Shown one piece after another: positions 36,939-57,855 of a stretch of DNA of 64,000 nucleotides. Position 1 is the first letter of the stretch, and each line of letters opens with the position of its first letter. Location of the stretch: the IMG/VR virus record IMGVR_UViG_3300025696_000001, positions 1-64,000 of that record; one strand, written 5' to 3'. A program made the translations under genes and the position numbers. Source of the DNA: a virus. Below the pieces are notes generated by a model. That model saw only the letters and a program-made list of their open reading frames with translations. It did no database searches and was not told where the DNA came from.

Positions 36939-36974
36939 GCTTATGTTTATTAAGTTTGGTATGAAGCTTAAACA

Positions 36975-37257: not shown

Positions 37258-37259
37258 AA

Positions 37260-37673: not shown

Positions 37674-37809
37674 ATATTTTAATCCACCTCCCACCCGCCA
37701 TTACGCTGTTTAAACAATATAGTTAAAGGGCGTATAAATACACACTTTATAAAATAGATTCTTACTTGTAACCTATGCATCGGTGCCTATACCTGCTATT
37801 GTTGTTTAA

Positions 37810-38058: not shown

Positions 38059-38060
38059 AA

Positions 38061-38222
38061 TTATGACTCTCCGATTTCAAGTATTTGGTTTTCTAATTCA
38101 ATTACCTCATCTTCCATTTCTTCTACTACTGTATCTAAATATTCAAGTTCTTGAATTAATCTTTGATTAGTAATATTTCCATTTTTTACGTCGGTAATTA
38201 TAGCTTTTAATAGCTCTGACAT
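38061..38222 (-). CDS. Small coiled-coil protein (53 aa)
   Basis: MSELLKAIITDVKNGNITNQRLIQELEYLDTVVEEMEDEVIELENQILEIGES. Fills the gap between nrdA and the next gene. Too short to appear in the ORF track. Confidence 0.4.
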   Translation of the reverse strand: MSELLKAIITDVKNGNITNQRLIQELEYLDTVVEEMEDEVIELENQILEIGES

Positions 38223-38244
38223 TTTATTTAAATTTAAATTTTGT

Positions 38245-39891
38245 TTAACTTTCGCATGCTACACATGTATTAATATCTCTTGCAAAACTTTGTGCTGCAC
38301 TTTGACTAAATTGATAATAAAGTGTTTTAACACCTTCTTCCCAAGCATATATGTAGAGCTTATTAACCTCTTTTGCTGAAACAGAAGGATGTATCATCAA
38401 GTTGAGTGACTGACTTTGATCAATGTGTTTTTGTCTTTGTGCTGCTTGTAATACAAGTTCTTTTGGTGATATTTCTATAAATGATTTAAATACTTCTTTA
38501 GTAGGAAAATCTAAGTGTTGTACACTTCCATCATTATCAAGAATGCTTTTCCAAACCTCTGGTGTATCAAGATTGTACTGCTCAAGTTGCTGCCTAAGCA
38601 TTTCATTCTTATATACTGATTTGACTTTAGCAAGATCTTTAATAAAATAATTGGACTTTATTGGTTCGATACCCATACTTACTTGTCCAAGTATATAACT
38701 ACTTGATTTTGTTGGTGCAATAGCCATTACCGTTGTATTGGCATATCCTTCTCGAATAGATTTCATTTCTAGAAAATCATGACACCATTTACTAGCTGCT
38801 TGAGCTTTTTCATTTATAGTTTTAAAAATTATACTATTCCAATATTTAGCCTTCAGACTATCTACTTCTAACAATTCACTTTGTAAAAAAGAATGCCACC
38901 CTAACACACCAAGACCTATAGCCCTGTGGTCCTTTGCAAATCTCCACGCTCTCTTCATACCAGGAAGGTGCTCAGACTTTTTAATAAAGTCTTCTATCAC
39001 GGCGTTAAGGAATTGTATGTAAACTTCTACAGCATCAGTATTCGCAATCTCTTTCCAGTGAAGTAGATTGATACTACCCAAACAACAGACAAAGCTGTTA
39101 TAAGTGTCCTGTGGTAGCTGTATTTCTGAACAAAGGTTGCTAGCTTTAATATCTAGACCAAGCTCTTTGTACGGACTGTTGTTATTGGAATTATCCTTAA
39201 ACATTATATAAGGGAAACCAAAATCTTTACGTTTCTGTATGATTTTAGCCCAAATCTTTCTCTTTCCAGAGTCTCCATCTTTCATGGCATTCATCCACGC
39301 ATCCGTGACTGTGACGCCAAATTGAAGATTTTGAATGGGATTGCCCTCGTCCCCAATTTTAAGGAATTCCATTATATCTGGGTGTTCAACGGGTAAATAG
39401 AGAGCACATGCCCCTCTTCTGGATTCACCCTGCTTACATCTATCGATAATGGTATCGTAGATTTTAGCGTAATGAACAGGACCGTCTGCATAGCCACCTC
39501 CTGATATTACTGAACCTCTTTTTCTTATATTGCCTAAATACATGGATGTACCACCTCCATATTTAGACATCATTCCTATTTCTCTTGCTCCATTTAGGAT
39601 ACTATCCATTGTGTCATCTACATCAGAACCATAACAACTAATAGGCAAAGCCTTTTCATATCCAAAATTACACCATACGGGAGTTGATAGACTATAATAG
39701 CCCAGTGCCATGTAGTTTTCAAACTTTTCAGCTCATCCTTTTATCCCTAAAATCTTTTCTGCGTAATTTCCTATGTCTTTAATCCTCTGTTCTGCTGTGA
39801 TACCGTTTTTAAGATATCCTCTATTTAGGAACTTTCTTGACTCGTCATTAAGCCAATAGTACTTCTCTCTTTTCTTTTTCTCTATTTCCAT
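38245..39891 (-). CDS. nrdA: Ribonucleotide reductase class I large subunit (548 aa), one in-frame TGA
   Basis: NLCSEI active-site Cys, APTKSSSYILG, C-terminal CVAC pair. The N-terminal 60 codons (MEIEKKKREKYYWLNDESRKFL..GIKG[TGA]AEKFENY) join in frame through the TGA at 39733-35. Confidence 0.85.
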
Positions 39892-44104: not shown

Positions 44105-44803
44105 TTATTCCCATTTAATACAAAATTCTTTTCCATTTTGACCTTCTATTATTTCGTTAACTTGTTTAAAATGTGTACAATTCCAATCTATGTTATTATC
44201 ACAAGCATATGCTGGATGTGGACATGTAAGTTTTTCATAAAAATTCTTTTTTGAGGTTTTTACACTTGAGTTAAATGCATGTTGAGATTTATTTCCCCAC
44301 AAACAAAATATAACTCCTGCATTGTTATCAATAATAAAATTTATTATAAATTTTGTAAAATCATTCCAAATTTCTAAATGACTGTTTACCATACCTTTTT
44401 GTACAGTCAATGCTGTATTATATAAGAATACTCCTTGTCTTACCCAATTTTCAAGTGTAACATCTGGATCTATGAGTGTTGTATCATATTGCGTTTCAAT
44501 ACATTTAAATATCTTGTTTAAAGAAGGTGATAAATTAATAGCATCATCATTGTTAGCAAATGCATAACCGTTTGCATGACCAGTTGTATATGGATCTTGA
44601 CCCAGAATTACAACTTTTATATTCTTGGGATCACTATTTCTAAATATTCTAAAAACATCTTTTTTATTTGGATATATTTCTGACTTATCATAGCTTCTAC
44701 TTAAATTTTTAATAAGATTAACAAAATAGTCAGACTTTACATACTGTGCAAATTCATCAATTTTCATCCATTTTTCTCCAAATATTTCATTATATTTTAT
44801 CAT
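44105..44803 (-). CDS. ung: Uracil-DNA glycosylase, family 1-like
   Basis: VVILGQDPYTTGHANGYAF (GQDPY motif) and CPHPAY (the HPSP-equivalent His loop). Confidence 0.7.
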   Translation of the reverse strand: MIKYNEIFGEKWMKIDEFAQYVKSDYFVNLIKNLSRSYDKSEIYPNKKDVFRIFRNSDPKNIKVVILGQDPYTTGHANGYAFANNDDAINLSPSLNKIFKCIETQYDTTLIDPDVTLENWVRQGVFLYNTALTVQKGMVNSHLEIWNDFTKFIINFIIDNNAGVIFCLWGNKSQHAFNSSVKTSKKNFYEKLTCPHPAYACDNNIDWNCTHFKQVNEIIEGQNGKEFCIKWE

Positions 44804-44807
44804 CTTA

Positions 44808-46304
44808 TTAATTTATATCATTGGTAAATTTAGAATAAAACTTGTGTTCGGTAACACCTTCTGGATCAACCTTGTTAAGATTTTCCATTAATGATTTTCT
44901 TTCAGAATTATATTTTAAATTTGAATTTAGAATACCATCAGTAAATTCTTCATTATCTTTTGCAACCATTTTTATTATGGTTTCAAGGATATTTGATTTA
45001 TTACTTATTGAATTTAAAAAACTACTATCAGTAAACTTTTCAGTATATTGATTTGCTGCAGCAACCATAGCTGCTGAACTAGCTATAAAATGAAATATCT
45101 TAAAGAAATCAAAAGTATTGTTATGCTGTCTAAACTCTACTGTTTGCTTATTGGTAAATATAATGGGAATTATATTAAACCACGCATAACGAGGAGCAAT
45201 ATTCCATTTTCTGTTACCACTTGGATCATTTGGATGTTTTGTTACATTGTCAAGATCATTATCATACATTGAAAAATCATGACCCATTGAAAGATAATTA
45301 AATAAACTGTTAAACAGTGACTTAACACCTGTTCTGGTTGACTTTAGATTCTGATTAAAAACATCCTTGTTGATTGGGGCACTATAATTCTTTGATTTAC
45401 CATATGCAATTGAATCTTTTTTATAATGAGGCTGCATTGCATATATATCATTTTCTACAAGACATGATATGTTGTTCATTGCAAGAATATTATTTGGATC
45501 TCTTTTAAGACCACCCAAATGAATATGCATTGAACATTTAAAATCATATTTGGTTCTGTCTTTTAGCAATTCACATATATCCATTAAATTATAAAGACCC
45601 TTAGCTCCAGACAACGGAATTGTAACATATTCAAGACCCTGAATACTACCATCACGAAGAGGTATTAAACCATGTTTATAACATAATCTTTCAGGTATAT
45701 AACCTGATGAAGTCTCAAATTCAACACCATATGTAATACCGTTCTTTTCAAGAAATTTACCCAGTTCATCTATCATTTTATTACCTCCAGATGGTTTATA
45801 AAATGTATCATATGCCCTTTTGGTCATATCACTGGCAAATCTACTATCATAGATTAAATCATTTTTATTGATTGGAGGTCTCTTTATTGATTTAAATTTT
45901 GCATCGGACATTACATTAGACTCATAAAATGTTCCACTGTTATAATGCTCTTTATAATTATCACCCAAGATTTCTTGATTTATTGCTAAATTATTTAATC
46001 TTGAGCTTAATGAAACATTTACATTTTTTGTTATATTGGAGGTAAAGAACCCCAATATTGGAGTTCCATCTTTTTCAAATCCTACAACACCTCTTCTCAA
46101 AGGAACTTTATTTGTTAGAACATATTCTTTTTTTTCATAGTCATATTCTATAAGTCCATTGTTAAATCTATGATATTTACCATCAACCTTATAACATTCA
46201 CCGCTATCCTTTACTTTTGTGTCACCTATTTTATAAAAAGTATTTTGTATCTTTCTACAGTGGCTTCGTTCTATCATTTCTCCACTATACGTTTTTACTT
46301 TCAT
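44808..46304 (-). CDS. Glutamine-synthetase-fold amidoligase (Amidoligase_2-like)
   Basis: GVEFETSSG, LRDGSIQGLEYVTIPL, CSMHIHLGG and VEFRQHNNT match the phage COOH-NH2 ligase family signature. Confidence 0.65.
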   Translation of the reverse strand: MKVKTYSGEMIERSHCRKIQNTFYKIGDTKVKDSGECYKVDGKYHRFNNGLIEYDYEKKEYVLTNKVPLRRGVVGFEKDGTPILGFFTSNITKNVNVSLSSRLNNLAINQEILGDNYKEHYNSGTFYESNVMSDAKFKSIKRPPINKNDLIYDSRFASDMTKRAYDTFYKPSGGNKMIDELGKFLEKNGITYGVEFETSSGYIPERLCYKHGLIPLRDGSIQGLEYVTIPLSGAKGLYNLMDICELLKDRTKYDFKCSMHIHLGGLKRDPNNILAMNNISCLVENDIYAMQPHYKKDSIAYGKSKNYSAPINKDVFNQNLKSTRTGVKSLFNSLFNYLSMGHDFSMYDNDLDNVTKHPNDPSGNRKWNIAPRYAWFNIIPIIFTNKQTVEFRQHNNTFDFFKIFHFIASSAAMVAAANQYTEKFTDSSFLNSISNKSNILETIIKMVAKDNEEFTDGILNSNLKYNSERKSLMENLNKVDPEGVTEHKFYSKFTNDIN

Positions 46305-46319
46305 TGTTTTATTATTTTT

Positions 46320-48434
46320 TTAAAAATTACCATTTTCATCTCCAGTATTTGATCCATCCATATTAAAATTTGGTGAAAATTCATTGTACATATCTTCAGA
46401 AGCTCTCATTGCTATATAAGTATATTCCTCTTCATCCAACTGTTCATCTTCATCAACTTCACCACAACTGTCACAATCATTCTCAAATATTGTAGATTCT
46501 ATATAGTTTTTAATTGGTTTATAACTTTTTTCAAAATTATCTAGCCATTCAGCTATATTCAATTCCTGATCATATTTTTCTGGATGTTCAAATACTATAC
46601 TTTTACCTATTTCAATTGATTCATCCATTGCATTTATAAAATCATCATATTTGTTGTAAAGATCTTCATCATCAAGTTCACTTTCCTCATCATCAGTATC
46701 AGTTTCCTTAATTGTGTTCTTTAAAACATTTTGAATATTCTTTTTGAAATCACCAGATTTTATACTATCATTTTCATCTAATATTTTATCTTTGTCATCT
46801 ACGGGATTAGGTACCATTTTTATAGATGAATTATCTAACATGCCATTTCTGACAACATATGAATACGTACTACCTATTGGTTTAAAGTAGTCATAAAGGC
46901 AAATTTCACCATTTGCTATTATTTTATTCTTATACTCATCTTTCTTACTTTCAAGTATTTCATGCTTGTTTACAGTAAGTTCATTACCAGTATAATAATG
47001 ACACACTGGATATTTAGACATGTGTGACATTTGACTATTTGTAAAGAAATTATCTGCAGAATCCATACATACAATATAATCATGCTCATTTTTAAGCATT
47101 AATCCATTATATAGATAGTATAATGTTAAATCTGAACAATCTCCAAATACCTTTGAAATATTACTTTTTGAATTATGTGATATAATTTTATAATCCTTAA
47201 GAATTTCTCTAGTTTTAGTAATTGAATCACTAACATATATAAGACCTCTTTGTTTGGAATAGATATAAACACCATTCTTTGCAAAACTGTCTCCATTCAT
47301 GTACCTAAGTCTTTCATATCTAAGAGAATTATCATCTAATTCATCACATGTTCTTAATATCTTCTCAAAAAATATACTTTTGGATTGAAGTATTTCAGTT
47401 TCAGTTAATCCCTCACTGTTACCCAAATGGTTTTTAACAATAGTTTTCTTTCTATGATTTTCCTTAGGCTCTTCTTCTTTTCTTACATATTTAGTTTTCT
47501 TTTTTTCTTTATCTTTTAAAGCCCTGTTATATTCAACCATAGTAGAATATTTTTTATTCTTTGTACGATCAATATCAATTGCTTTACCAAGTCTACCTCC
47601 TTTTACTGCAACAAGACCATTATCTGGAAAAGTATATATTTCTACATCTTCTTCAGTATGTCTTTTTCCAGCAATTATTTCAAGATGTTCAGGTAATGAT
47701 GACCAATACATACTTCCTTCTTGATCATACCAATAATGAAGAGGTCTTTCGACTTCAGTAATTGCATTTGCCCATGTATCAACTTTTGATTTACCTTTAA
47801 AAAACCATACATTCTCAGGTTCTCTTTCAGAAAACATAACAAGAGCAGCTCTACCTGTATATTCTTGTAGAACTTTGATATTCTTATTGGAGTTATCATC
47901 TTTTTGTTTTGATAATATTTCCAAAAGAATCTCACTATCAACTTTTAGTCTACCGTTATCTCTTTCATCAATACCATATTTCTCAGCAAGAAAAGAATGA
48001 TTTTTTAAAGTACCATTATGAGCACCAATAAAATACTTACCATCTTCCATTATAAATTTAAATGGATGGGTATTTTCTACACTTTTGGTACCTCCTCTTG
48101 AGGAATTTCTGGTATGACCAATAATGACAGGGATATCTTTTGGATTGGGAAACTTATGTTTTATCATCATATCCCTAAACTTGGCTTCATTGTTGGAACC
48201 TATGTTATCACCTCTATAAAGCTCTCCATCTACAAATATACCACATGAGTCAGTACCTCTGGATTCATTCAGTATACCGAGTGTTATAAATTTATCTCTG
48301 TTGAATTTACTAACATCATCACCTGTCCATCCAAAATTACCACATGATAGGATATTTTTATTACTATTTGGTCTTATTAAATTTGATAACATTGTAGATA
48401 TCAAAAATAATAATATTATATTAAATATAAGCAT
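46320..48434 (-). CDS. Class II (Ntn) glutamine amidotransferase fused to a C-terminal region of about 400 aa with unknown function
   Basis: LSC|GNFGW, RGTDSCGIFV, GHTRNSSRGG..NTHPF, GAHNGTLKN, DSEILLE. The catalytic Cys is preceded by a hydrophobic leader of about 30 aa. Acidic C-terminal stretch. Confidence 0.7.
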   Translation of the reverse strand: MLIFNIILLFLISTMLSNLIRPNSNKNILSCGNFGWTGDDVSKFNRDKFITLGILNESRGTDSCGIFVDGELYRGDNIGSNNEAKFRDMMIKHKFPNPKDIPVIIGHTRNSSRGGTKSVENTHPFKFIMEDGKYFIGAHNGTLKNHSFLAEKYGIDERDNGRLKVDSEILLEILSKQKDDNSNKNIKVLQEYTGRAALVMFSEREPENVWFFKGKSKVDTWANAITEVERPLHYWYDQEGSMYWSSLPEHLEIIAGKRHTEEDVEIYTFPDNGLVAVKGGRLGKAIDIDRTKNKKYSTMVEYNRALKDKEKKKTKYVRKEEEPKENHRKKTIVKNHLGNSEGLTETEILQSKSIFFEKILRTCDELDDNSLRYERLRYMNGDSFAKNGVYIYSKQRGLIYVSDSITKTREILKDYKIISHNSKSNISKVFGDCSDLTLYYLYNGLMLKNEHDYIVCMDSADNFFTNSQMSHMSKYPVCHYYTGNELTVNKHEILESKKDEYKNKIIANGEICLYDYFKPIGSTYSYVVRNGMLDNSSIKMVPNPVDDKDKILDENDSIKSGDFKKNIQNVLKNTIKETDTDDEESELDDEDLYNKYDDFINAMDESIEIGKSIVFEHPEKYDQELNIAEWLDNFEKSYKPIKNYIESTIFENDCDSCGEVDEDEQLDEEEYTYIAMRASEDMYNEFSPNFNMDGSNTGDENGNF

Positions 48435-49257
48435 TTTCTTTTTTTTCTTTTTTATTATATTTTACCAATAATTCATTTACTTTTTCCAAATCAAGATCTT
48501 CTTCTGGATTTATGTACATAGAAACATCTTCAAGTAGATCTTCAGTAGATATATGACTGTTTTTTGCCATTTCCACTGCTTTTAAAGACCTTCTGTATAT
48601 ATCTCTTACACTATCTTCATCTTTTAGAAAATAACCTCCTAGAGAGCGACATTCAACACCATAGTCTTTTTCTCTTATGTCACCTATCTTACCATAGAAC
48701 TTTCTACGGTTATGATCATCATTATCTTCCAATAACAAAGGTAAGCTAACACATATCTCAAAAAATACAGCCAATCTATCAATCTCATTTTCTGTTGGGT
48801 TATCCCATCCAAAATGAATGTGAAAACCTGAAGATCTCATTTTAATACCTTGAATTTCTTCTTGATCAATTTCTATGATTCTTTTTGCAATTACATTATA
48901 TGCAGGTTCACATCCAAAAATATGAGCTTTTTCATCTTCTAATATCTCATCAGTAGCAAGCTCACTACTAGAATAATGAAGATCCATGTTCAATGGTGCT
49001 ATAAGTAATTCAATATATGATTTTGCATAATTTATTGAATCAACAAATTGATCTTCAGATCTACATGGTGGAATATTAAATTCAGCAAGAATATTATCTT
49101 CTTGAATAAAACATCCTTCACCAATATCTTGTGGGTTATTTTTGTCAGCATTAAAAACACCTATTATAGAACCTATTTTCCCTGTCTTTGATCCTTTTAC
49201 AAATACTTCTGGGTCTGATCCTATTGTTAAATTACTATAACTGTTCTTGTAATCCAT
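48421..49257 (-). CDS. Second amidoligase (phage COOH-NH2 ligase type 2-like)
   Basis: IGSDPEVFV, EDNILAEFNIPPC, GFHIHFGW, ECRSLGGYF. Confidence 0.6.
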   Translation of the reverse strand: MDYKNSYSNLTIGSDPEVFVKGSKTGKIGSIIGVFNADKNNPQDIGEGCFIQEDNILAEFNIPPCRSEDQFVDSINYAKSYIELLIAPLNMDLHYSSSELATDEILEDEKAHIFGCEPAYNVIAKRIIEIDQEEIQGIKMRSSGFHIHFGWDNPTENEIDRLAVFFEICVSLPLLLEDNDDHNRRKFYGKIGDIREKDYGVECRSLGGYFLKDEDSVRDIYRRSLKAVEMAKNSHISTEDLLEDVSMYINPEEDLDLEKVNELLVKYNKKEKKENAYI

Positions 49258-49891
49258 TCTCTATTAGTTTTATTGTATATTCTTTAAATTCATTACTCGC
49301 ATGTGCAAACTCAGGATGTCCCTGAATACACAAACTGTTTGTATTGTTGTAATACACTACTTCACACTCTTCAAAATCATCAGGTATGTCAATGCTGACA
49401 TTATCTCCATTGAGATATTTTTCTGAAAGGAATTCAGTTGCTGATGCGAGTATTTTATAGTTTGATTTATCCATATTAAATGGATACATCATTTGATGGT
49501 GTGTTGAGGTTACTTCAATTATTTCATTATCGCTTGTATTTATATAATGACTGTTACCATGACCTGTTACATGCTGAATAAGTTTACCTCCACTCATTAC
49601 AGTCAAAAACTGAGATCCTCTACATATACCTAATTTTAATAATCCATCTGGTAAAGAATTAAAGAATTCTTCTTCTATTACATCTCTACGAATATTTATA
49701 CCTGTTTGGTTTCCTCTATTTTCATTATAATATTCTGGATTAACATCTGCTCCTCCAGTAAATAATGCAAATGTTATACCTTCTTCATTTGGATTATCAG
49801 TTAATTCAACATCATAATATTTATTTAAAAATGTTAAATAATTGTTACCAAAATAATCAAAATTTGTAAATACCTTAATCTTCTTTTTCAT
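49235..49891 (-). CDS. Class I glutamine amidotransferase / gamma-glutamyl hydrolase (peptidase C26-like)
   Basis: FTGGADVNPEYY, nucleophile elbow GICRGSQFL, HHQMM, QGHPEF. Confidence 0.65.
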   Translation of the reverse strand: MKKKIKVFTNFDYFGNNYLTFLNKYYDVELTDNPNEEGITFALFTGGADVNPEYYNENRGNQTGINIRRDVIEEEFFNSLPDGLLKLGICRGSQFLTVMSGGKLIQHVTGHGNSHYINTSDNEIIEVTSTHHQMMYPFNMDKSNYKILASATEFLSEKYLNGDNVSIDIPDDFEECEVVYYNNTNSLCIQGHPEFAHASNEFKEYTIKLIENGLQEQL

Positions 49892-50642
49892 CTTGTTCTA
49901 TTCTATTTAATAATGTGTTAATAAGTCCAATTGCAACAAATGGATAGTTTCTTTCTTCAGGATGTGACTGTTCTGCCGCAATAGGTAAAATCTTGTGAAT
50001 CATAAATTCTATATTGTTATGATTCTTATCACGTGCTAATTCAAGGAATTCATCAGATAAATCTTCTTCAAATATAGCTTGATGATGTATTGAATTAGTT
50101 TTAAATTCTCTTGGTATATTACCTGAAAACTTAATTTTATCCTTATTGGATTCAATATATCTTTCACCAGCATAATCTTCTGGAAAATTGTCTAATATTG
50201 TTACCAGATCATCTACCAATTCACCTCTAAAAGTTTTGGATCTCTCGTTATAGACATGCTGTGTAAGAGTACCACCAAAACATACATTTAGATTTTGAAA
50301 ACCTGCACATATTCCATATATTGCTGTTTTTCCCTGTTTTGCTTTTTCGATATATTTCCAAAAAGCACCTACTTTTTCGTCATAGAATGATTCATACTCC
50401 ATATCTGGGGAATCAGTCATTACGTGTGGTCTTTGACCATATCTTAATGGATTGACATCTCTACCTCCAGGAAGTATAAGTAAGTCTACATCTACTGCAT
50501 TTTCATTGTGTGCATCTATCATAATTACATCTGCATCAAAACTTCTTGCAAATTCTACATACATTGCATTCTGACCGTAACCTGGTTGATATTTACCCAA
50601 ATGGTTATGAGCTAGTATTCCTATTATTCTTTTTCTTGACAT
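49875..50642 (-). CDS. Second class I GATase / peptidase C26-like protein
   Basis: LPGGRDVNPLRYG, GICAGFQNLNV, HHQAI, QSHPEE. Confidence 0.65.
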   Translation of the reverse strand: MSRKRIIGILAHNHLGKYQPGYGQNAMYVEFARSFDADVIMIDAHNENAVDVDLLILPGGRDVNPLRYGQRPHVMTDSPDMEYESFYDEKVGAFWKYIEKAKQGKTAIYGICAGFQNLNVCFGGTLTQHVYNERSKTFRGELVDDLVTILDNFPEDYAGERYIESNKDKIKFSGNIPREFKTNSIHHQAIFEEDLSDEFLELARDKNHNNIEFMIHKILPIAAEQSHPEERNYPFVAIGLINTLLNRIEQDEKED

Positions 50643-50650
50643 TTTATTTT

Positions 50651-50788
50651 TTATTTTTTATTATTTAATAATTTTTTACTTTTAAAATCAGCTATCATAC
50701 TATAAAATATTTCTTTTTCTTCTTCAGTAGCTTCACTCCATACTGCATCACTAAAAGGACTTTTATTAGTCTCTTTATAATCAGCCAT
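50651..50788 (-). CDS. Small acidic protein (45 aa), tentative
   Basis: MADYKETNKSPFSDAVWSEATEEEKEIFYSMIADFKSKKLLNNKK fills the only gap inside the ligase cluster. Confidence 0.3.
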   Translation of the reverse strand: MADYKETNKSPFSDAVWSEATEEEKEIFYSMIADFKSKKLLNNKK

Positions 50789-50795
50789 GTTAATT

Positions 50796-51683
50796 TTAGT
50801 TACTTTCATTATATTTATTTTTTAACATTACTGGTATATGTTCGATATACTTTTGTTTTACAACAGTATCTTCATCCACTTCACCAAAACTTGGTGCTGA
50901 ATTAATTTCCACTATTATAAAATCTGGATTGTCTCTTCTATTACCATCTCTATCTGTTGCTGATTGTACTCTTAAATCAATTGCACCAAAATCCAATCCA
51001 ACAGAATTTAGAGCCTTCACTGATTCTGATACTATATCATCCCAATTTGTAGGTTTATCAAAAAGACCCGTTGCTGAATCTTCAAGTATCCATACACAAT
51101 TAGCATCGTTTCTAAACCATTTTTGATCATCTGGAGTATCTCTCTTCATCATTTTACGACATGTATAGAAACATCCATTAGCATCAACATGAAGTCTATA
51201 CTCCCTTGAATAATTATAATACCTTTCAAAAATTCTATTTTCTAGATTTACTCCCAATCTTAAGTAATTTCTTATTTCTTCAATTGTATTGAGTATTGTA
51301 TTACCCTGACCTCTACTACCATATAATGATTTGGCAACCAATGGTATTGGCATGTCATCTATATTTACGGATTCATTGTTTGTTTGTAAAACAAATTGTT
51401 CTAGATTACCAGAAGCTTTATACCAATCTGCTGTTTTTACATTATCTCTTGTAAAACAATTTTTCATTCTTAGCTTACTACTACTGTTTCTAACAGCTTC
51501 AATTGTATTAAGCTCTATTCTATCACCATTGTTTGTTACGCTATCTTTGATATCTGTAGTACTACCCAATCTTACAACTGACTTAAATGGTAACAATTGT
51601 AAATTTTTATGTCTTCTTCTAAGACATGAATGAGAGGGATGTCTAGTAAAGATAGTAGGTCTAAAGTTTGTATATTTTTTCAT
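50796..51683 (-). CDS. ATP-grasp ligase (RimK-like)
   Basis: VAKSLYGSRGQGNTIL, EYRLHV, FGAIDLRV, IIVEINSAPSFG. Confidence 0.7.
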   Translation of the reverse strand: MKKYTNFRPTIFTRHPSHSCLRRRHKNLQLLPFKSVVRLGSTTDIKDSVTNNGDRIELNTIEAVRNSSSKLRMKNCFTRDNVKTADWYKASGNLEQFVLQTNNESVNIDDMPIPLVAKSLYGSRGQGNTILNTIEEIRNYLRLGVNLENRIFERYYNYSREYRLHVDANGCFYTCRKMMKRDTPDDQKWFRNDANCVWILEDSATGLFDKPTNWDDIVSESVKALNSVGLDFGAIDLRVQSATDRDGNRRDNPDFIIVEINSAPSFGEVDEDTVVKQKYIEHIPVMLKNKYNESN

Positions 51684-52116
51684 TGAATTCTTTTATTAAT
51701 TTTTCTTTTGTGTATATTCTTTCATTAAATATGGAACCATAATTTTCGTTACTTTTATTGGGATCAAAAAAATATATATAATCTTTAGCCATTAAAGTTC
51801 TATTTTTAATTACAGGTTTATTTATATCGTTACAAAGTCTTATTATACATTGCTTTTCTCTTATAAGCTCTCTTACATATCTATTATATTGTCTAGTTCT
51901 AAACTTTGGATAATATGACTTAATTAATTTATATAAACCAGAAAGAGATCTAGCATAAAATTCACTTTTTATCTTTGTGCAATTTTTATTTTTATATGTT
52001 GCATATCTTCCGTTTCTACTGTATTGATTCAATAAAAACTTATGTAACAATTCTTTTGCTGTAGAATGTTTAAAGTTGAAATGCTCTTGTATGATCTGCA
52101 TAATCTCCTGATTCAA
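51661..52116 (-). CDS. Hypothetical basic protein (151 aa)
   Basis: ORF overlapping both neighbours. TAG stop. Confidence 0.5.
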   Translation of the reverse strand: MNQEIMQIIQEHFNFKHSTAKELLHKFLLNQYSRNGRYATYKNKNCTKIKSEFYARSLSGLYKLIKSYYPKFRTRQYNRYVRELIREKQCIIRLCNDINKPVIKNRTLMAKDYIYFFDPNKSNENYGSIFNERIYTKEKLIKEFNEKIYKL

Positions 52117-52477
52117 TTAATGTTTTGCCTTCTTTATCACCAAAGTAAATAGATGCTTCAATTTCTTCTCCATCATCAAGCTCAACTTGTATTGGAGTTC
52201 TTTTATACCATGATCCCTCATGATCATTTGGGTTATATCCCTCAAGCCCATCTACCGTAGGTAACTGTTCTGGAGTAACTGAATATACTTCTACCCTTAC
52301 TTTACTTACTGCTTCGTCTTTTTTTACAAAAGGGATTCCATTTGCTGTAAGTTTATATTTTTCTTTTGTCCATCCAGCAGATATAAGTTTGGAATCACCT
52401 AAAAATCGATGGTTTCCAAAATTACTTCTAAGTGTTCCATATACACAAATTAATGTATTATCATTTTCTTTATTCAT
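52070..52477 (-). CDS. Gamma-glutamylcyclotransferase (GGCT/AIG2-like)
   Basis: N-terminal ICVYGTLRSNFGNH (YGTLR hallmark) and GLEGY Glu loop. Confidence 0.7.
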   Translation of the reverse strand: MNKENDNTLICVYGTLRSNFGNHRFLGDSKLISAGWTKEKYKLTANGIPFVKKDEAVSKVRVEVYSVTPEQLPTVDGLEGYNPNDHEGSWYKRTPIQVELDDGEEIEASIYFGDKEGKTLIESGDYADHTRAFQL

Positions 52478-52481
52478 TTCT

Positions 52482-53510
52482 TTAAATATTTGTTTTAGAG
52501 TTTAATATTGTTTTTGCTAGATTTTTGTCATAATTATCAACAAGTTCAGAAAAATCCTTTGATTTATATACCTCTGAAAGACATACATTTCTTAAAGAAT
52601 ATTCTTTACATATTTCTTGGGCACTTAACTGTCCCCAATTTTCTTCTTTATCATAATCATTATCAAAGAATACAAATATATTATCAAATCTAAGTTTTAG
52701 TTGGTCTATAATATTATCTTTTGGCTTTGCTTTCTCATTTTGCAAAGAGATTGCTGGAATACCTGTTGTATTAATAATTGACATCACATCTTTTAGTGAT
52801 TTTGTAATTATTAATTTACTACCAGATTTAGGTAGTTGAGTCCATCCTTGCCATACTGAATTATCACTATTTGTAAACCATTTATATTCACTGTAAGGTT
52901 GATATATTTTTAGTGTTTGAACACTATCTTTCCATTCTGTATATACGTATGCATGCTTGTCCGCAGCTATAGGCTTTTTATTTAGGAATATATATTTTAT
53001 AGGGCTTACATTATAATCTTTTAATATCTTCAGATCAATATTGAATTTTGACCAATAATCAATATCATGCTTTTCCCAAGATCTTCTATTGACTTGTATC
53101 TCGCATTTTTCCTTTCTTGATATTTTTATTTTTCTTTTTCTCTGTTTTACTTTTTTATTACTATCTGAATCAAGATCTTCATTACATTTAAATCTTTTAT
53201 GTAATCCAAAATCAATAGCTATTCTACTATATACATCATACCATCTGGTATATTGAAACAATTCTTTTACAAATTTGAAACAATCACCTCCACCCTTTAC
53301 AAAATCATTATATATTATATAACCTTCTTTAGATTCAAAAAATCCAAAAGATGGTGTTTTATCATCTCTAAATGGTGATGACATAACTGATCCTATTTTG
53401 ATTTTATGGGTGTTCATGTAATATGTATATATTGACTCATCAAGTATATTATCTCTTATTACATCTCTTGTAATTAAGGGTTTTATTATACATTCATTTA
53501 TATCTACCAT
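52482..53510 (-). CDS. DNA primase (DnaG/Toprim-like) with a degenerate zinc-finger region
   Basis: SSPFRDDKTPSFGFF parallels CPFH.EKTPSF but lacks the Cys residues. VFFDNDYDKEE is a Toprim DxD. Confidence 0.5.
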   Translation of the reverse strand: MVDINECIIKPLITRDVIRDNILDESIYTYYMNTHKIKIGSVMSSPFRDDKTPSFGFFESKEGYIIYNDFVKGGGDCFKFVKELFQYTRWYDVYSRIAIDFGLHKRFKCNEDLDSDSNKKVKQRKRKIKISRKEKCEIQVNRRSWEKHDIDYWSKFNIDLKILKDYNVSPIKYIFLNKKPIAADKHAYVYTEWKDSVQTLKIYQPYSEYKWFTNSDNSVWQGWTQLPKSGSKLIITKSLKDVMSIINTTGIPAISLQNEKAKPKDNIIDQLKLRFDNIFVFFDNDYDKEENWGQLSAQEICKEYSLRNVCLSEVYKSKDFSELVDNYDKNLAKTILNSKTNI

Positions 53511-55478: not shown

Positions 55479-55838
55479 TTATTTATTATAAGCCAACATT
55501 TCTGCTGGAATTCTTGGATATGATTTATAATTTGATAAATTAAAATCTTTTATTCTAAAACAATCCAATAAAGAATCCAAGCTATTATCTTTTGAAGATA
55601 TTGCTGGTTTATTTCCTTTATTATAATTATCTATAAGACTAGGTATATGATCCATAATCGATAAATCACATTTACCATACTTATCAACATCCCTACTTAA
55701 TTGCTCTTTAACGGCATTAAGATGAGGCTCATAGATATGGACGTTGCTAAAATCACCTATAATACCTTTTGGGACCATGTTAGTCATCTTACCTATGATC
55801 TGTGCTAAAAGTGCATAAGAAGCAATGTTAAAGGGTAA
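55479..55838 (-). CDS. thyA: Thymidylate synthase, exon 2
   Basis: Begins LPFNIASYALLAQ, which is the ThyA core continuing from ..FLG. The Met in the track ORF is the last intron codon (AUG ending in omega-G). Confidence 0.85.
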   Translation of the reverse strand, partial: LPFNIASYALLAQIIGKMTNMVPKGIIGDFSNVHIYEPHLNAVKEQLSRDVDKYGKCDLSIMDHIPSLIDNYNKGNKPAISSKDNSLDSLLDCFRIKDFNLSNYKSYPRIPAEMLAYNK

Positions 55839-55875
55839 CATTTTATTCCATAAAGTGCGTAACTACTTTATGCGT

Positions 55876-56142
55876 TTAATTAATTTTAATAACTTTATTA
55901 CAATACACACATAAAGTATGTACATATATTTCTCTATTAGGTCTATTATTTATTTTTTCACAATGTTCAATATGTTTTTTCAAACTATCAGAACATTTCA
56001 TAATATCTGTACTTTTTATAAACAATGTTTTGCCATTTTTAGTATAACTAATTTTAGCTAATACTTGTTGTGATATTTTGTGATTAAAAAATATAATATC
56101 TCCTATATTTAAATTGTTATTGTTAAAATCTTTTATTTTCAT
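55876..56142 (-). CDS. Second intron ORF (88 aa) in the P9 region, unknown function
   Basis: Lies between the P9 hairpin and the terminal hairpin 55849-55872. Cys/His pattern C-x10-H-C ... C-x2-C. Confidence 0.45.
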   Translation of the reverse strand: MKIKDFNNNNLNIGDIIFFNHKISQQVLAKISYTKNGKTLFIKSTDIMKCSDSLKKHIEHCEKINNRPNREIYVHTLCVYCNKVIKIN

Positions 56143-56265
56143 AATATTTATTAATTAAACTGCTGCATATTACTATGCAGATTAGACTATATCTTCACTC
56201 ATTTCTGAGGTCTACCGTTTCCACTCACTTGAATGTACGTTCACAATGAACTAGTCGTTGCGCAT

Positions 56266-56976
56266 TTATTTATATTTATATTTATTAAATTTAACATTTT
56301 TACTATTTATCCTATAATAAATAGTTGATGATGGTATTTTTAATTGTCTAGAAGCTTCATTTAAAGATTTATACTCTATATTATTTATAATAATAGGTTT
56401 TTCTTGACCATTATTACATTTACCTAGATGAGCTATTCTTAATTTTTCTTTAGTTTCTATACTGTGTTTTTTACCATAAAAAGAATTATTTCTACCTTTT
56501 CTATTTGTACATTTAATACAGGCTTTAGAGCTACTATTAATTCTTGTACCACATTTACAATAAGTTAATCCACCTTTCCAATTAGGGTTGTTACTTCCTA
56601 TGTAAGATTTAGTTCTTTTAGGTGCTTTTAATAAAGCTTCAGTAGTTTTTTTTATAATCTCAGCTCTATTAGGATGATTAAATATTAAATCACCACCTGT
56701 AGCCATTTTTGAAATATTATAAGTATCCTTAAAATCAATAACATTATCAAATAGATATTGTTCTCTCTCAAGATAATTATAACAAGTTTCAATAATTATA
56801 AATTCAAAATTGTCTTCTGAATATTTATTAAAAGCTCTTTGTAAATGAATAGAATGATGTTTATTCTTTCTTAATTCATTAAAATGTTTTAATTTTCTAA
56901 CATGGCAGTTTTTACTACTACCAATATAGAATTTCCCGTTAATTCTATTACGAATTATATAAATGTATCCTTTCAT
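56266..56976 (-). CDS. Intron-encoded GIY-YIG homing endonuclease
   Basis: GYIYIIRNRINGKFYIGSS (GIY-YIG). NUMOD3-like GKKHSIETKEKLRIAHLGK. C-terminal HTH-like YKSLNEASRQLKIPSSTIYYR. Sits where T4-type introns carry their ORF (P6 loop). Confidence 0.8.
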   Translation of the reverse strand: MKGYIYIIRNRINGKFYIGSSKNCHVRKLKHFNELRKNKHHSIHLQRAFNKYSEDNFEFIIIETCYNYLEREQYLFDNVIDFKDTYNISKMATGGDLIFNHPNRAEIIKKTTEALLKAPKRTKSYIGSNNPNWKGGLTYCKCGTRINSSSKACIKCTNRKGRNNSFYGKKHSIETKEKLRIAHLGKCNNGQEKPIIINNIEYKSLNEASRQLKIPSSTIYYRINSKNVKFNKYKYK

Positions 56977-57129
56977 AGATACAAATATACAACAGATTAA
57001 ATGGAATACCAAATAATATGTCAACTAATTTATAATAAATTTAATTATAAAATTTAGCACAGGATTATCCCCAGCTTAATCTGGTAGGACTTTCCCTGTT
57101 TAGATAGATTTAACCTCAGCTTACATTTT

Positions 57130-57855
57130 ACCGAGGAAAGTGTCCACACTATGTTGATGCCATTTTAAAGTGAATTTATATCTAGATATATTCTTGTTAG
57201 GATTAGGATTTTTAAAGTCCATATCACTAACAGATTTACCTTCCCATAATTTCATTATTAATTCTGTTCTAGATAATGGCTCAACTAATATCTCAAAACT
57301 CCAATGACAAGGTGTTAATGCACATTGATCTTTTTCTGCTGGATTCCAAAAAGTTACTGTTTTCTTAGTAGCCATTGGATTACTTTTAAGAGTATTAATA
57401 AGTTCTGAAAATTGGTCTAATGTAGGTGATATACCATCTGATTTTCCTTCATCTGACCAACTTCTCAATTGAGCACCATATCCTCTACCTATATTTCCTA
57501 TTTCTGGAAAATGTTTTAGTTTTGATATATAATTTTCTACTCTCATTGTAGGTTTATTATTTTGTTTTTTATACCAATAATTAAAAGCATCTTTACTCCA
57601 AATGTTAATATCATTATCTACAAGATATTTAATATTTTGTTCCCCTCTTAAAATCCATAACAACTCTCCTACAACACCTTTCCAATATAACTGTTTAGTA
57701 GTTATTGCGGGAAAACCATCATTAAAATTGTGTACAATCTTATAATCTGGTATTTGAAGCCTATATACACCTTTACGATTTGGGTCTTCATATCTAAATC
57801 CATCATCTAGGATGTGTTGTAGTAATTTGTGATATTTTTTATCTATAAAAGCCAT
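57130..57855 (-). CDS. thyA: Thymidylate synthase, exon 1
   Basis: FPAITTKQLYWKGVVGELLWILRG, TFWNPAE, ALTPCHWSFE (catalytic Cys), ends ..WHQHSVDTFLG. Confidence 0.85.

What the first reader, a model, noticed from the sequence alone, without database searches (positions are those of the whole stretch)
44808..52477. Seven-enzyme amide-bond cluster (3 ligases, 3 amidotransferase/hydrolases, 1 cyclotransferase) inside the replication module
These genes are co-directional and overlap-coupled:
- a GS-fold amidoligase (44808..46304);
- an Ntn/class II GATase fusion (46320..48434);
- a second amidoligase (48421..49257);
- two class I GATase/peptidase C26 paralogues (49235..49891 and 49875..50642);
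- a RimK-like ATP-grasp ligase (50796..51683);
- an unknown 151-aa protein;
- a gamma-glutamylcyclotransferase (52070..52477).
Comparative genomics of amidoligases has previously noted phage operons that combine these families, as I recall, and predicted peptide-like metabolite or peptide-tag synthesis. As far as I know, no product or target has been shown.
The enzyme set implies stepwise ATP-dependent addition of (gamma-)glutamyl or amino-acid units, with glutamine-derived amination and trimming or cyclisation. The cluster sits between UDG and primase, in a genome that also encodes an atypical ThyA, several MazG-like enzymes and a HAD phosphatase. A DNA or nucleotide hypermodification pathway, such as amino-acid-decorated pyrimidines, is therefore one reasonable hypothesis. 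Protein tagging or cell-wall peptide remodelling are alternatives.
Basis: partly seen in the sequence, partly recalled or inferred. Interest (0 to 1): 0.8.

Follow-up and report, generated by a model that had tools for sequence, protein, structure and literature searches.

The report
Known phage amide-ligase cassette, crAss-like copy
The seven enzyme genes are real, but they are the crAss-like-phage copy of a phage-only "amidoligase" gene cassette first described in 2009; its product is still unknown, and the evidence here argues against the proposed link to DNA base modification.

Summary
Window 44808-52477 (minus strand) holds nine tightly packed, co-directional ORFs between primase and UDG. 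They encode two GCS2-type carboxylate-amine ligases (Amidoligase_2 and phiEco32-type COOH-NH2 ligase), a RimK-like ATP-grasp ligase, an Ntn (class II) glutamine amidotransferase, two C26/class I GATase paralogues and a gamma-glutamylcyclotransferase. There are also a fast-evolving 146-151-aa ORF and a 52-aa ORF.

This is not a new kind of cluster. It is the phiEco32/LUZ24-type cassette that later papers call a putative "peptidoglycan modification module". The gene order seen here is conserved in Cellulophaga phage phi14:2 and about 20 crAss-like contigs.

Lineage-specific features:
- an extra C26 paralogue;
- a 30-aa hydrophobic N-terminal extension before the catalytic Cys of the Ntn enzyme;
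- a confidently modelled C-terminal domain with no structural match.

The DNA-hypermodification reading is poorly supported:
- LUZ24 carries the cassette but no thymidylate-synthase-family gene.
- DNA of a LUZ24-like phage was sensitive to 11 of 16 restriction enzymes.
- phiEco32 uses ThyX.
- No known hypermodification enzyme was found in the scanned window ORFs.
- All three genomes avoid palindromic restriction sites.

The most likely function is ATP-dependent building and gamma-glutamyl-specific trimming of a peptide- or amine-type conjugate early in infection. The acceptor is unknown.

The parts
52070..52477 (-). Gamma-glutamylcyclotransferase (GGACT/AIG2-like, 135 aa). First cassette gene after primase.
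   Evidence: PF06094 at 1e-20 and phrog_2520 at 2e-29. PDB relatives are the UPF0131 proteins PH0828, YkqA and YtfP. Carries the YGTL motif and the DGLEG Glu (sequence). Found in 50 of 79 cassette loci.
51661..52116 (-). Basic ORF of 146-151 aa and unknown function. The TTG start is at 52116; the independent gene call starts at the ATG at 52101.
   Evidence: No Pfam, PHROG or NCBIfam hit. Positional homologues of 148-158 aa lie between GGCT and the ATP-grasp gene in L003, L004, L005 and L007. Similarity to the window ORF itself is weak: BLASTP E=2.5e-4 to L007, against a database of only those few gap ORFs. Absent from phi14:2 and from more distant relatives. Called as 146 aa by the collection's gene caller.
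50796..51683 (-). RimK-like ATP-grasp ligase (295 aa).
   Evidence: phrog_2599 at 3e-28. Profile A2 hits cyanophycin synthetase (1.7e-11), alpha-L-glutamate ligases (3e-10), RimK (1e-8), LysX/ArgX and Ddl. NCBIfam rimK_fam at 4e-6, below its cut-off. Invariant columns in the orthologue alignment are K70, E161, R163, H165, D236, E259 and N261. Reading E259/N261 as the metal-binding E-x-N motif is my interpretation.
50651..50809 (-). 52-aa ORF of doubtful significance.
   Evidence: Called by the ORF list and by the independent gene caller. No family hit and no homologue in any related locus.
49875..50642 (-). C26a: additional class I GATase / peptidase C26 paralogue (255 aa), specific to this lineage.
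   Evidence: PF07722 at 1.4e-21 and PF00117 at 4e-10. Triad present: GICAGFQ and SHPEE. It is 72-73% identical to the copies aligned from L003 and L005, and 22-28% to all other C26 copies. Nearest PDB entries are 7d4r/7d53 ('probable glutamine amidotransferase') and 3fij.
49235..49891 (-). C26b: orthologue of the single C26 / class I GATase found across the cassette family (218 aa).
   Evidence: PF07722 at 3e-13 and phrog_7218 at 3e-35. Triad present: GICRGSQ and GHPE. It lacks the roughly 40-aa insert of C26a, as do the single-copy genes of L007, L014, L018, L019, L025 and L042. Weak best NCBIfam hit is gamma-glutamyl-CDP-amidate hydrolase, 1.3e-6, far below its cut-off.
48421..49257 (-). phiEco32-type COOH-NH2 ligase type 2 (278 aa). 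Phage-specific carboxylate-amine ligase and anchor gene of the cassette.
   Evidence: PF14395 at 1.9e-8 and phrog_3815 at 4e-58. It is 45% identical to phi14:2 gp050 by tblastn and 30% to phiEco32 gp86. Found in 311 phage records but in only 6 short MAG contigs among 185,579 genomes. Invariant residues include D15, P16, E17, Q52, E53, D54, N55, E59, H146, H148, G150, E202 and R204.
46320..48434 (-). Ntn (class II) glutamine amidotransferase fusion (704 aa). Three parts: a hydrophobic N-terminal extension (aa 1-30, nt 48345-48434); the Ntn glutaminase domain starting at Cys31 (to about aa 295, nt about 47550-48344); and a domain of unknown fold with an acidic helical tail (aa 341-704, nt 46323-47414).
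   Evidence: PF13522 at 2e-9. In 49 homologues Cys31-Gly32 are nearly invariant, and R109, N140, G141 and D166 are invariant. 29 of the 49 carry a 24-30-aa hydrophobic extension before the Cys; 19 start M-C. AF2 gives mean pLDDT 80, with a helix at aa 2-20. Foldseek matches only the Ntn domain: GFAT/GlmS 4e-11, PurF, EgtC 3e-8, AsnB. The C-terminal model has pLDDT 77.5 with a core above 90. It has no PDB match better than E=1.3, and in BFVD it matches only phi14:2 gp051.
44808..46304 (-). Amidoligase_2-family carboxylate-amine ligase (498 aa). It has a lineage-specific N-terminal domain (aa 1-190, nt 45735-46304) and a catalytic region (aa 191-498).
   Evidence: PF12224 at 23.3 bits (cut-off 22) over aa 205-403; phrog_2443 at 6e-58. 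Invariant residues in 18 orthologues: G193, E195, E197, D218, S220, G223, E225, H260, H262, E390 and R392. The N-terminal domain was found in only 21 loci, all with the crAss-like arrangement. No PDB hit by sequence.
52482..53510 (-). DNA primase. Conserved upstream neighbour; context, not part of the enzyme set.
   Evidence: phrog_12622 at 3e-71. Directly upstream of GGCT in almost all crAss-like loci.
44105..44803 (-). Uracil-DNA glycosylase. Conserved downstream neighbour; context only.
   Evidence: PF03167 at 2e-15. Follows the amidoligase gene in 19 crAss-like loci.

Best explanation
**Identity.** This is the crAss-like-phage version of the phage-specific phiEco32/LUZ24-type amidoligase cassette.

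**Proposed mechanism.**
1. The genes are expressed early, together with the replication genes.
2. Their products work in the cytoplasm as a build-and-trim pathway for amide bonds.
3. The two GCS2-type carboxylate-amine ligases and the RimK-type ATP-grasp ligase each use ATP to join a carboxylate to an amine. That allows up to three peptide or isopeptide bonds, probably involving glutamate.
4. The Ntn amidotransferase binds a free L-glutamine or L-gamma-glutamyl head group. It either delivers ammonia to an activated carboxylate or hydrolyses a gamma-glutamyl amide.
5. The C26 enzymes and the cyclotransferase remove L-gamma-glutamyl groups, the latter as 5-oxoproline.

**What I commit to.** The substrate is a soluble peptide- or amine-type molecule on which gamma-glutamyl serves as a building block or a removable handle. 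It is not DNA.

**Shown here:** the enzyme families, their intact catalytic residues, their conserved co-occurrence, the restriction to phages, and early expression in phi14:2.

**Inferred:** the order of steps, glutamate as the unit, and the kind of acceptor.
For: - Family assignments and catalytic residues are intact.
- The core set co-occurs in 66-69 of 79 loci drawn from very different phages.
- The anchor ligase is virtually absent from cellular genomes.
- In phi14:2, which has the same gene order, the whole replicative module is early and is transcribed by the virion RNA polymerase (bioRxiv 10.1101/2020.03.07.982082).
- R109, N140-G141 and D166 are invariant in the Ntn domain. By my alignment to GlmS from memory, these correspond to the residues that hold the alpha-amino and alpha-carboxylate groups of glutamine. 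The fold matches GlmS, PurF, AsnB and the gamma-glutamyl hydrolase EgtC.
- The nearest characterised relatives of the ATP-grasp enzyme all add amino acids to carboxylates of peptides or proteins: cyanophycin synthetase, RimK and LysX/ArgX.
- The C26 copies are closest to a Pseudomonas 'probable glutamine amidotransferase' (7d4r) and weakly to a gamma-glutamyl-CDP-amidate hydrolase.
- From established knowledge, not tested here: three pathways use gamma-glutamyl as a temporary handle on an amine. They are GS-type ligase plus C26 hydrolase (PuuA/PuuD), ATP-grasp plus GGCT (BtrJ/BtrG in butirosin) and GCS2 ligase plus Ntn hydrolase (EgtA/EgtC).
- No cassette protein has a recognisable DNA-binding or peptidoglycan-binding domain.
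Against: - No product, substrate or phenotype is known for any member of the family in the papers I could search.
- The GS/GCS2 fold of the two ligases was not verified structurally.
- The acceptor-side domain of the Ntn protein has no known relative, so it gives no clue.
- The conserved position beside primase is not explained by a small-molecule role.
- The hydrophobic extension on the Ntn enzyme would fit a membrane-associated substrate better than a soluble one.
- No tailoring or export genes accompany the cassette.
Confidence: 0.35

Rival explanations
1. Cell-wall peptide remodelling, the published guess. The three ligases make the unusual bonds of a phage-directed peptidoglycan stem peptide or precursor. 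The amidotransferase amidates it and the hydrolases degrade host versions. The altered wall would block superinfection or prepare the cell for lysis.
For: - This is how citing papers summarise Iyer 2009 and Hardies 2013 (PMC5498523; PMC10580990; PMC11945000).
- Cassette hosts named in the records and papers are mostly Gram-negative: Escherichia, Pseudomonas, Vibrio, Aeromonas and Cellulophaga.
- From established knowledge: MurT/GatD and AsnB/LtsA-type enzymes amidate stem peptides using glutamine.
- The Ntn enzyme of this lineage has a conserved 24-30-aa hydrophobic N-terminal helix. It is the only transmembrane-like segment in the cluster and would place the enzyme at the membrane where lipid II is found.
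- The ATP-grasp profile also hits D-Ala-D-Ala ligases (5e-6) and, weakly, a pseudomurein ATP-grasp model.
Against: - From established knowledge: GGCT, C26 and the Ntn glutaminase pocket need an L-gamma-glutamyl group with a free alpha-amine. The stem-peptide D-isoglutamate is N-acylated and of D configuration.
- There is no Mur-ligase domain, no AsnB-type synthetase domain and no peptidoglycan-binding domain.
- The genes are early and sit with the replication genes, not with the lysis genes.
- Half of the crAss-like homologues, and all phiEco32/LUZ24-type homologues, lack the hydrophobic extension.
- The hypothesis has never been tested experimentally, as far as the searchable literature shows.
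Confidence: 0.25
2. Protein tagging. The ligases add glutamate or short peptide tags to a phage or host protein, for example a replication or translation factor, in the way RimK glutamylates ribosomal protein S6. The hydrolases trim or reverse the tag.
For: - The nearest characterised ATP-grasp relatives (RimK, LysX/ArgX, cyanophycin synthetase) act on protein or peptide C-termini.
- The cassette is adjacent to primase in 40 of 70 loci, across two primase types.
- A fast-evolving basic ORF sits inside the cluster in this sub-lineage.
Against: - There is no conserved candidate substrate gene across the family. The 151-aa ORF is confined to the closest relatives, and the small ORFs of phiEco32 and LUZ24 have no counterpart here.
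- No LysW-like carrier protein was found.
- From established knowledge: GGCT-type enzymes act on free gamma-glutamyl amines rather than on proteins.
Confidence: 0.15
3. DNA or nucleotide hypermodification. The cassette appends amino-acid or gamma-glutamyl groups to a base or nucleotide, protecting phage DNA from host nucleases.
For: - The cassette lies inside the replication module, next to primase, in most lineages.
- The window's ThyA has an unusual R166-to-H change and an insert.
- From established knowledge: class II GATase domains do occur in 7-deazaguanine DNA-modification pathways.
Against: - LUZ24 has the cassette but no thymidylate-synthase-family or nucleotide-metabolism gene. phiEco32 has ThyX.
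- DNA of the LUZ24-like phage U17 was sensitive to 11 of 16 restriction enzymes.
- No known hypermodification family was found in the scanned window ORFs.
- Palindrome avoidance is strong. Window: GGCC 0 observed against 10.7 expected, CCGG 1 against 9.6. phiEco32: GATC 170 against 362, CCWGG 4 against 89. In LUZ24 several 6-mer palindromes are absent.
- phi14:2 DNA is routinely amplified by PCR and sequenced.
- The cassette proteins have no recognisable nucleic-acid-binding domain.
Confidence: 0.1

Closest known systems
Cellulophaga phage phi14:2 gp048-gp052 (KC821624; Crassvirales, Steigviridae)
   Same: Same gene order and orientation: primase - GGCT - ATP-grasp - COOH-NH2 ligase - Ntn GATase fusion - amidoligase - UDG. 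The COOH-NH2 ligase is 45% identical. It has the same hydrophobic extension before the Ntn Cys, and its gp051 shows the same C-terminal domain. The module is an early transcription class.
   Different: phi14:2 has no C26/class I GATase gene, no 151-aa ORF and no 52-aa ORF. Three of its five cassette genes are annotated only as 'hypothetical' or as 'glucosamine-fructose-6-phosphate aminotransferase'.
phiEco32 gp77-gp86 and LUZ24 gp16-gp22 cassette (Iyer et al. 2009; 'peptidoglycan modification module' attributed to Hardies et al. 2013)
   Same: Same five core families: COOH-NH2 ligase type 2, Amidoligase_2, Ntn GATase with N-terminal Cys, RimK-like ATP-grasp and AIG2/GGCT. C26 is often present too. 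The cassette is co-directional, lies among early or replication genes, and is next to a primase gene. No product is known.
   Different: - The order relative to transcription is roughly reversed: ligase first, primase last.
- A roughly 190-205-aa ORF sits between the two ligases (phiEco32 gp85, LUZ24 gp17). It shows no homology to the N-terminal domain of the window's amidoligase or to the C-terminal domain of its Ntn protein.
- Small conserved ORFs follow the GATase.
- The Ntn protein starts M-C, with no extension and a different C-terminal region.
- The neighbouring primase is of the T7 gp4 type.
Gamma-glutamyl 'handle' pathways: PuuA/PuuD (putrescine), BtrJ/BtrG (butirosin), EgtA/EgtC (ergothioneine)
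   Same: Each pairs an ATP-dependent ligase that makes a gamma-glutamyl amide with a C26 hydrolase, a GGCT-type cyclotransferase or an Ntn hydrolase that later removes it. All three remover types are present here. EgtC is a structural match of the Ntn domain. The pathway descriptions come from established knowledge and were not tested here.
   Different: These are cellular pathways with known substrates and extra tailoring enzymes such as oxidases, carrier proteins or methyltransferases, none of which is present here. The sequence relationship is only at superfamily level. Membership is not claimed.
MurT/GatD and AsnB/LtsA-type amidation of peptidoglycan stem peptides
   Same: They combine a glutamine amidotransferase with an ATP-dependent activating enzyme acting at the membrane face (established knowledge). 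AsnB is a structural match of the Ntn domain.
   Different: No Mur-ligase domain is present. The CobB/CobQ-type GATase_3 hit of C26a is below its cut-off (19.6 against 27 bits). There is no AsnB-type synthetase domain, and the C-terminal domain has no known fold match.

Membership tests
phiEco32-type phage amidoligase cassette | COOH-NH2 ligase type 2 (PF14395) present | tested here: met
   34.3 bits against a 25-bit cut-off; phrog_3815 at 4e-58.
phiEco32-type phage amidoligase cassette | Second ligase of the Amidoligase_2 family (PF12224) | tested here: met
   23.3 bits against a 22-bit cut-off (marginal), but phrog_2443 at 6e-58 and conserved ExE, HxH and ExR motifs in 18 orthologues.
phiEco32-type phage amidoligase cassette | Class II (Ntn) glutamine amidotransferase with catalytic N-terminal Cys | tested here: met
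   PF13522 at 37.9 bits. Cys31-Gly32 are nearly invariant. The fold matches GlmS, PurF, EgtC and AsnB. Here the Cys follows a 30-aa extension that would have to be cleaved off; that cleavage is not testable here.
phiEco32-type phage amidoligase cassette | RimK-like ATP-grasp ligase | tested here: met
   The orthologue profile hits cyanophycin synthetase, alpha-L-glutamate ligases and RimK at 1e-11 to 1e-8. The single sequence alone does not.
phiEco32-type phage amidoligase cassette | AIG2/GGCT-family cyclotransferase | tested here: met
   PF06094 at 74.9 bits.
phiEco32-type phage amidoligase cassette | Genes clustered co-directionally in a phage genome among early or replication genes | tested here: met
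   The phi14:2 orthologues belong to the early class.
phiEco32-type phage amidoligase cassette | Defined biochemical product or target | not testable with these tools
   None is reported for any member in the searchable literature.
Pyrimidine hypermodification pathways built on 5-hydroxymethyl pyrimidines | ThyA-family hydroxymethylase rather than a methylating thymidylate synthase | tested here: inconclusive
   The joined ThyA matches true thymidylate synthases best (1e-41; T4 td 1e-37) and keeps the catalytic Cys and Asn177. It has R166-to-H and an insert of about 30 aa. Sequence alone cannot separate the two activities.
Pyrimidine hypermodification pathways built on 5-hydroxymethyl pyrimidines | 5-hmdU DNA kinase, aGPT-Pplase, glycosyltransferase or similar post-replicative enzymes | tested here: not met
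   No such family was found among the replication-module ORFs scanned with Pfam and PHROGs. Several ORFs remain unannotated, and the plus-strand ORFs at 1-32437 were not scanned.
Pyrimidine hypermodification pathways built on 5-hydroxymethyl pyrimidines | Cassette co-occurs with a pyrimidine hydroxymethylase across phages | tested here: not met
   LUZ24 has none annotated. phiEco32 has ThyX.
Pyrimidine hypermodification pathways built on 5-hydroxymethyl pyrimidines | Non-canonical bases in virion DNA | not testable with these tools
   Only indirect evidence: a LUZ24-like phage's DNA was sensitive to 11 of 16 enzymes, and all three genomes avoid palindromes.
PuuA/PuuD-type gamma-glutamylation pathway | C26 gamma-glutamyl hydrolase with Cys-His-Glu triad | tested here: met
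   Both paralogues keep the triad. The nearest PDB entry is 7d4r.
PuuA/PuuD-type gamma-glutamylation pathway | Glutamine-synthetase-family gamma-glutamyl-amine synthetase, plus the oxidase and dehydrogenase steps | tested here: not met
   The ligases are of the Amidoligase_2 and COOH-NH2_lig families, not Gln-synt_C. No oxidase or dehydrogenase is in the cluster.
MurT/GatD or AsnB-type stem-peptide amidation | Mur-ligase or PP-loop synthetase partner domain | tested here: not met
   No Mur_ligase or Asn_synthase hit. The C-terminal domain of the Ntn protein matches no PDB fold.
RimK/LysX protein-modifying ATP-grasp systems | Dedicated acidic C-terminal substrate or carrier protein (S6-like or LysW-like) encoded nearby | tested here: not met
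   No such ORF is in the window cluster. The small ORFs of LUZ24 and phiEco32 have no counterpart here.

The most novel reading that the evidence does not exclude
The cassette acts on the replication machinery or on DNA or nucleotides. For example, it might append a gamma-glutamyl or peptide group to a base, a nucleotide pool component or a replisome protein. Such a role would explain why two unrelated arrangements both keep the cassette beside a primase gene. It would also explain why Kuravirus phages resist restriction-modification systems with no known modification pathway. The lineage seen here would be a membrane-tethered, self-activating variant with a new acceptor domain.
Probability: 0.1. 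Interest if true: 0.85.

Novelty: new member of a known kind. Interest (0 to 1): 0.38.

Why it matters
The cassette takes up 7.7 kb of this roughly 100-kb genome and about 5.7 kb of the 45.6-kb LUZ24 genome. It is conserved across crAss-like phages, Kuravirus, Bruynoghevirus and many marine phages, including phage-therapy candidates. It is essentially absent from cellular genomes. Even so, its product has not been identified since the cassette was first described in 2009.

This work shows that a whole branch of Crassvirales keeps the cassette in a fixed position between primase and UDG. That gives the open question a further culturable model, phi14:2 on Cellulophaga baltica. It also narrows the hypotheses: a role in pyrimidine hypermodification is unlikely. 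The window itself adds lineage-specific variations rather than a new principle.

Tried and rejected
1. Near-identity DNA search of the cluster against GenBank phages found no match.
2. Single-sequence PDB search with the ATP-grasp protein gave only chance hits. A profile was needed.
3. Profiles of the two GCS2-type ligases against PDB sequences gave nothing. hhalign between the two aligned only the HxH motif, at 7.5% probability.
4. The C-terminal domain of the Ntn protein was a dead end:
   - Foldseek against PDB gave nothing better than E=1.3.
   - BFVD returned only the phi14:2 orthologue.
   - A word-indexed protein search with the domain core returned nothing, not even the parent protein, which I read as a limit of that tool.
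5. I tested whether the extra domains of the crAss-like proteins are fusions of the separate small ORFs of phiEco32 or LUZ24 (gp85/gp17-like, gp81/gp82/gp20-like). hhalign probabilities were 0.15% or lower, so the idea was rejected. Part (gp14, gp15, gp20, gp23) reused a stale model and was discarded.
6. The LysW-like carrier idea came from the C-terminal EDYFE of LUZ24 gp20. It was not supported: the motif is internal in Kuravirus and no counterpart exists in the window.
7. Rfam found no group I intron in the thyA insert at either threshold.
8. Iyer 2009, Iyer 2013 and Hardies 2013 could not be read. Their content is cited second-hand from papers that quote them.
9. The scan of cellular genomes for informative neighbourhoods returned only 6 short MAG contigs.

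Full report
**1. What is in the sequence**

Window 44808-52477 carries nine minus-strand ORFs. Spacings run from -32 to +15 nt, and the block is bracketed by primase (52482-53510) and UDG (44105-44803). An independent gene caller on the source contig makes the same calls. That contig is ENA ERZ23491538 scaffold_135, 100,650 bp.

- Amidoligase_2: 44808-46304
- class II/Ntn GATase domain at the N-terminus of a 704-aa protein: 46320-48434
- phiEco32-type COOH-NH2 ligase: 48421-49257
- two Peptidase_C26/class I GATase proteins: 49235-49891 and 49875-50642
- GGACT-family cyclotransferase: 52070-52477

The ATP-grasp call (50796-51683) had no Pfam or PDB support as a single sequence. A profile of 16 orthologues hits cyanophycin synthetase, alpha-L-glutamate ligases, RimK, LysX/ArgX and Ddl. 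Catalytic residues are intact throughout:
- Cys/His/Glu in both C26 copies
- Cys31-Gly32 plus R109, N140-G141 and D166 in the Ntn domain
- ExE, HxH and ExR motifs in both GCS2-type ligases
- E259/N261 in the ATP-grasp enzyme

**2. What genome this is**

The nearest isolate is Cellulophaga phage phi14:2 (Crassvirales, Steigviridae). Its COOH-NH2 ligase is 45% identical. The window also has the crAss hallmark, a 2421-aa ORF with a DFDID motif. Its replication module follows the phi14:2 layout: DNA polymerase, DnaB-like helicase, thyA, Sak4, an SSB-like protein, primase, the cassette, UDG, exonuclease, MazG and RNR.

**3. The cluster is a known, phage-specific cassette**

phi14:2 has primase - GGCT - ATP-grasp - COOH-NH2 ligase - Ntn GATase - amidoligase - UDG in the same order. 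phiEco32 (gp77-gp86) and LUZ24 (gp16-gp22) have the same five core families next to their primase/helicase genes.

The literature I could read attributes the first description to Iyer et al. 2009 and the cell-wall idea to Hardies et al. 2013. As late as 2025 it still calls the set a 'putative peptidoglycan modification module' (PMC5498523; PMC10580990; PMC11945000; PMC11318856). I found no paper reporting a product or target, and none discussing the crAss-like version.

**4. Comparative genomics**

A profile of the COOH-NH2 ligase retrieved 77 IMG/VR loci. Iterative HMM searches over 79 loci found Amidoligase_2 in 66, the Ntn GATase in 68-69, the ATP-grasp in 68, GGCT in 50 and C26 in 45. Many of these loci are truncated.

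Two arrangements exist:
- A crAss-like one, identical to the window. It has zero to two C26 copies and is always flanked by primase and UDG.
- A podovirus one: (C26) - COOH-NH2 ligase - an ORF of about 200 aa - amidoligase - Ntn - ATP-grasp - (GGCT) - primase/helicase.

Several jumbo-phage contigs carry only the COOH-NH2 ligase, with or without GGCT or C26. In 185,579 cellular genomes the anchor ligase appears in only six short MAG contigs, so the family is essentially phage-only. A primase gene lies within 1.5 kb in 40 of the 70 loci that have at least four cassette genes. It is upstream in the crAss-like arrangement and downstream in the other, and the two primases are of different types. 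I cannot explain that linkage.

**5. What is particular to this window**

(a) *Two C26 genes.* C26b is the orthologue of the widespread single copy. C26a is an extra paralogue found only in the window and in L003-L006.

(b) *A hydrophobic extension on the Ntn protein.* The protein begins with MLIFNIILLFLISTMLSNLIRPNSNKNILS before the catalytic Cys. Of 49 homologues, 29 have such a 24-30-aa extension and 19 start M-C. All phiEco32/LUZ24-type proteins where the N-terminus could be read start M-C. AF2 predicts a helix for aa 2-20, and it is the only transmembrane-like segment in the cluster. An Ntn enzyme needs a free N-terminal Cys, so I infer that the extension is a propeptide removed by self-cleavage, possibly a membrane tether. 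This is inference.

(c) *An unknown C-terminal domain on the Ntn protein.* Residues 341-704 fold confidently, with the core above pLDDT 90, into a beta-rich domain plus an acidic helical tail. The model matches nothing in PDB and only phi14:2 gp051 in BFVD. It is not a GlmS, PurF or AsnB-type synthase domain.

(d) *An extra N-terminal domain on the amidoligase.* Its first 190 aa form a domain confined to the crAss-like arrangement.

(e) *A fast-evolving small ORF.* The 146-151-aa basic ORF has rapidly diverging positional homologues only in the closest relatives.

**6. Testing the DNA-hypermodification idea**

Evidence against:
- LUZ24 carries the cassette in a 45.6-kb genome with no annotated thymidylate synthase or other nucleotide-metabolism gene.
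- phiEco32 has ThyX and a dCTP deaminase.
- DNA of the LUZ24-like phage U17 was sensitive to 11 of 16 restriction enzymes.
- The window's thyA is split at FLG|LPFN by an insert of about 1.3 kb carrying a GIY-YIG endonuclease. Once joined, it matches genuine thymidylate synthases best.
- No known hypermodification enzyme family was found in the replication-module ORFs I scanned.
- Palindromic restriction sites are avoided in all three genomes. Mean z of 4-mer palindromes is -1.8 in the window, -3.8 in phiEco32 and -2.4 in LUZ24, against about +0.2 for other words. In the window GGCC occurs 0 times and CCGG once. In phiEco32 CCWGG occurs 4 times against 89 expected.

Evidence for:
- the primase linkage;
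- the unexplained resistance of Kuravirus phages to restriction-modification systems (PMC11990801);
- the R166-to-H change in the window's ThyA.

I put this reading at about 10%.

**7. Most likely mechanism**

All three 'removal' enzymes belong to families that recognise an L-gamma-glutamyl or glutamine head group with free alpha-amino and alpha-carboxylate groups. These are the Ntn glutaminase/EgtC-like fold, C26 and GGCT. All three ligases belong to families that make amide bonds through ATP-activated carboxylates.

Known cellular pathways pair exactly these families to put on, and later take off, a gamma-glutamyl group on an amine: PuuA/PuuD, BtrJ/BtrG and EgtA/EgtC. That statement rests on established knowledge, except that EgtC is a structural match.

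The phi14:2 orthologues are early genes transcribed by the virion RNA polymerase. I therefore favour an early, cytoplasmic build-and-trim pathway for a gamma-glutamyl-linked peptide or amine conjugate (35%). The alternatives are:
- the published cell-wall-precursor idea (25%), which the hydrophobic Ntn extension would fit;
- protein tagging (15%);
- DNA or nucleotide modification (10%).

None of these can be settled by sequence analysis.

**8. Verdict**

However, the cluster is a new member, with lineage-specific variations, of a cassette known since 2009. Its function remains an open and experimentally tractable question.

Noticed in passing
window 55479-57855 (minus strand): thyA is split into an N-terminal part (57121-57855, Pfam positions 1-175) and a C-terminal part (55479-55841, positions 176-265). 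The break falls at FLG|LPFN. The insert of about 1.3 kb holds a GIY-YIG homing endonuclease ORF (56266-57024) and an 88-aa ORF. The junction bases (U before the 5' junction, G before the 3' junction) fit a group I intron, but Rfam finds none. The joined protein has His in place of the conserved Arg166.
   Followed up: partly
window 48345-48434 (minus strand; aa 1-30 of the Ntn GATase): A conserved-length (24-30 aa) hydrophobic helix precedes the catalytic Cys in 29 of 49 homologues, while the others start M-C. This implies a cleavable propeptide, possibly a membrane tether, which is unusual for a class II amidotransferase.
   Followed up: partly
whole window; also phiEco32 (L089+L002+L090) and LUZ24 (L086): Short palindromes are strongly avoided. 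Window: GGCC 0 and CCGG 1 in 64 kb; CATG 124 against 195 expected. phiEco32: GATC 170 against 362; CCWGG 4 against 89. This points to long-term selection by restriction enzymes.
   Followed up: partly
related loci L001-L079 and LUZ24/phiEco32: The cassette sits next to a primase gene in 40 of 70 loci, although the two arrangements use different primase types and place the primase on opposite sides. No explanation was found.
   Followed up: partly
window 20987-28252 (plus strand): A 2421-aa ORF carries a DFDID motif at residue 1423, the hallmark of the crAss-like virion RNA polymerase. It is flanked by 1565-aa and 1391-aa ORFs.
   Followed up: partly
window 35748-39711 (minus strand): Other replication genes also look fragmentary. 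A 177-aa ORF has only a Helicase_C domain. The RNR large-subunit ORF (488 aa) matches only the C-terminal two-thirds of the family profiles. About 1 kb (36282-37259) has no ORF of 90 aa or more. More split genes or mobile inserts may be present.
   Followed up: no
L002 (phiEco32 gp81, gp82), L086 (LUZ24 gp20): The podovirus-type cassettes have conserved small ORFs right after the Ntn GATase gene. LUZ24 gp20 ends in EDYFE, which resembles the C-terminal EDWGE of the LysW carrier protein (the latter recalled from memory). The motif is internal in Kuravirus, and nothing equivalent exists in the window.
   Followed up: partly
L029 5904-6608: In one crAss-like lineage the single C26 copy has lost the catalytic Cys (GFGNGS) and the His, so this step appears dispensable or non-catalytic there.
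   Followed up: no
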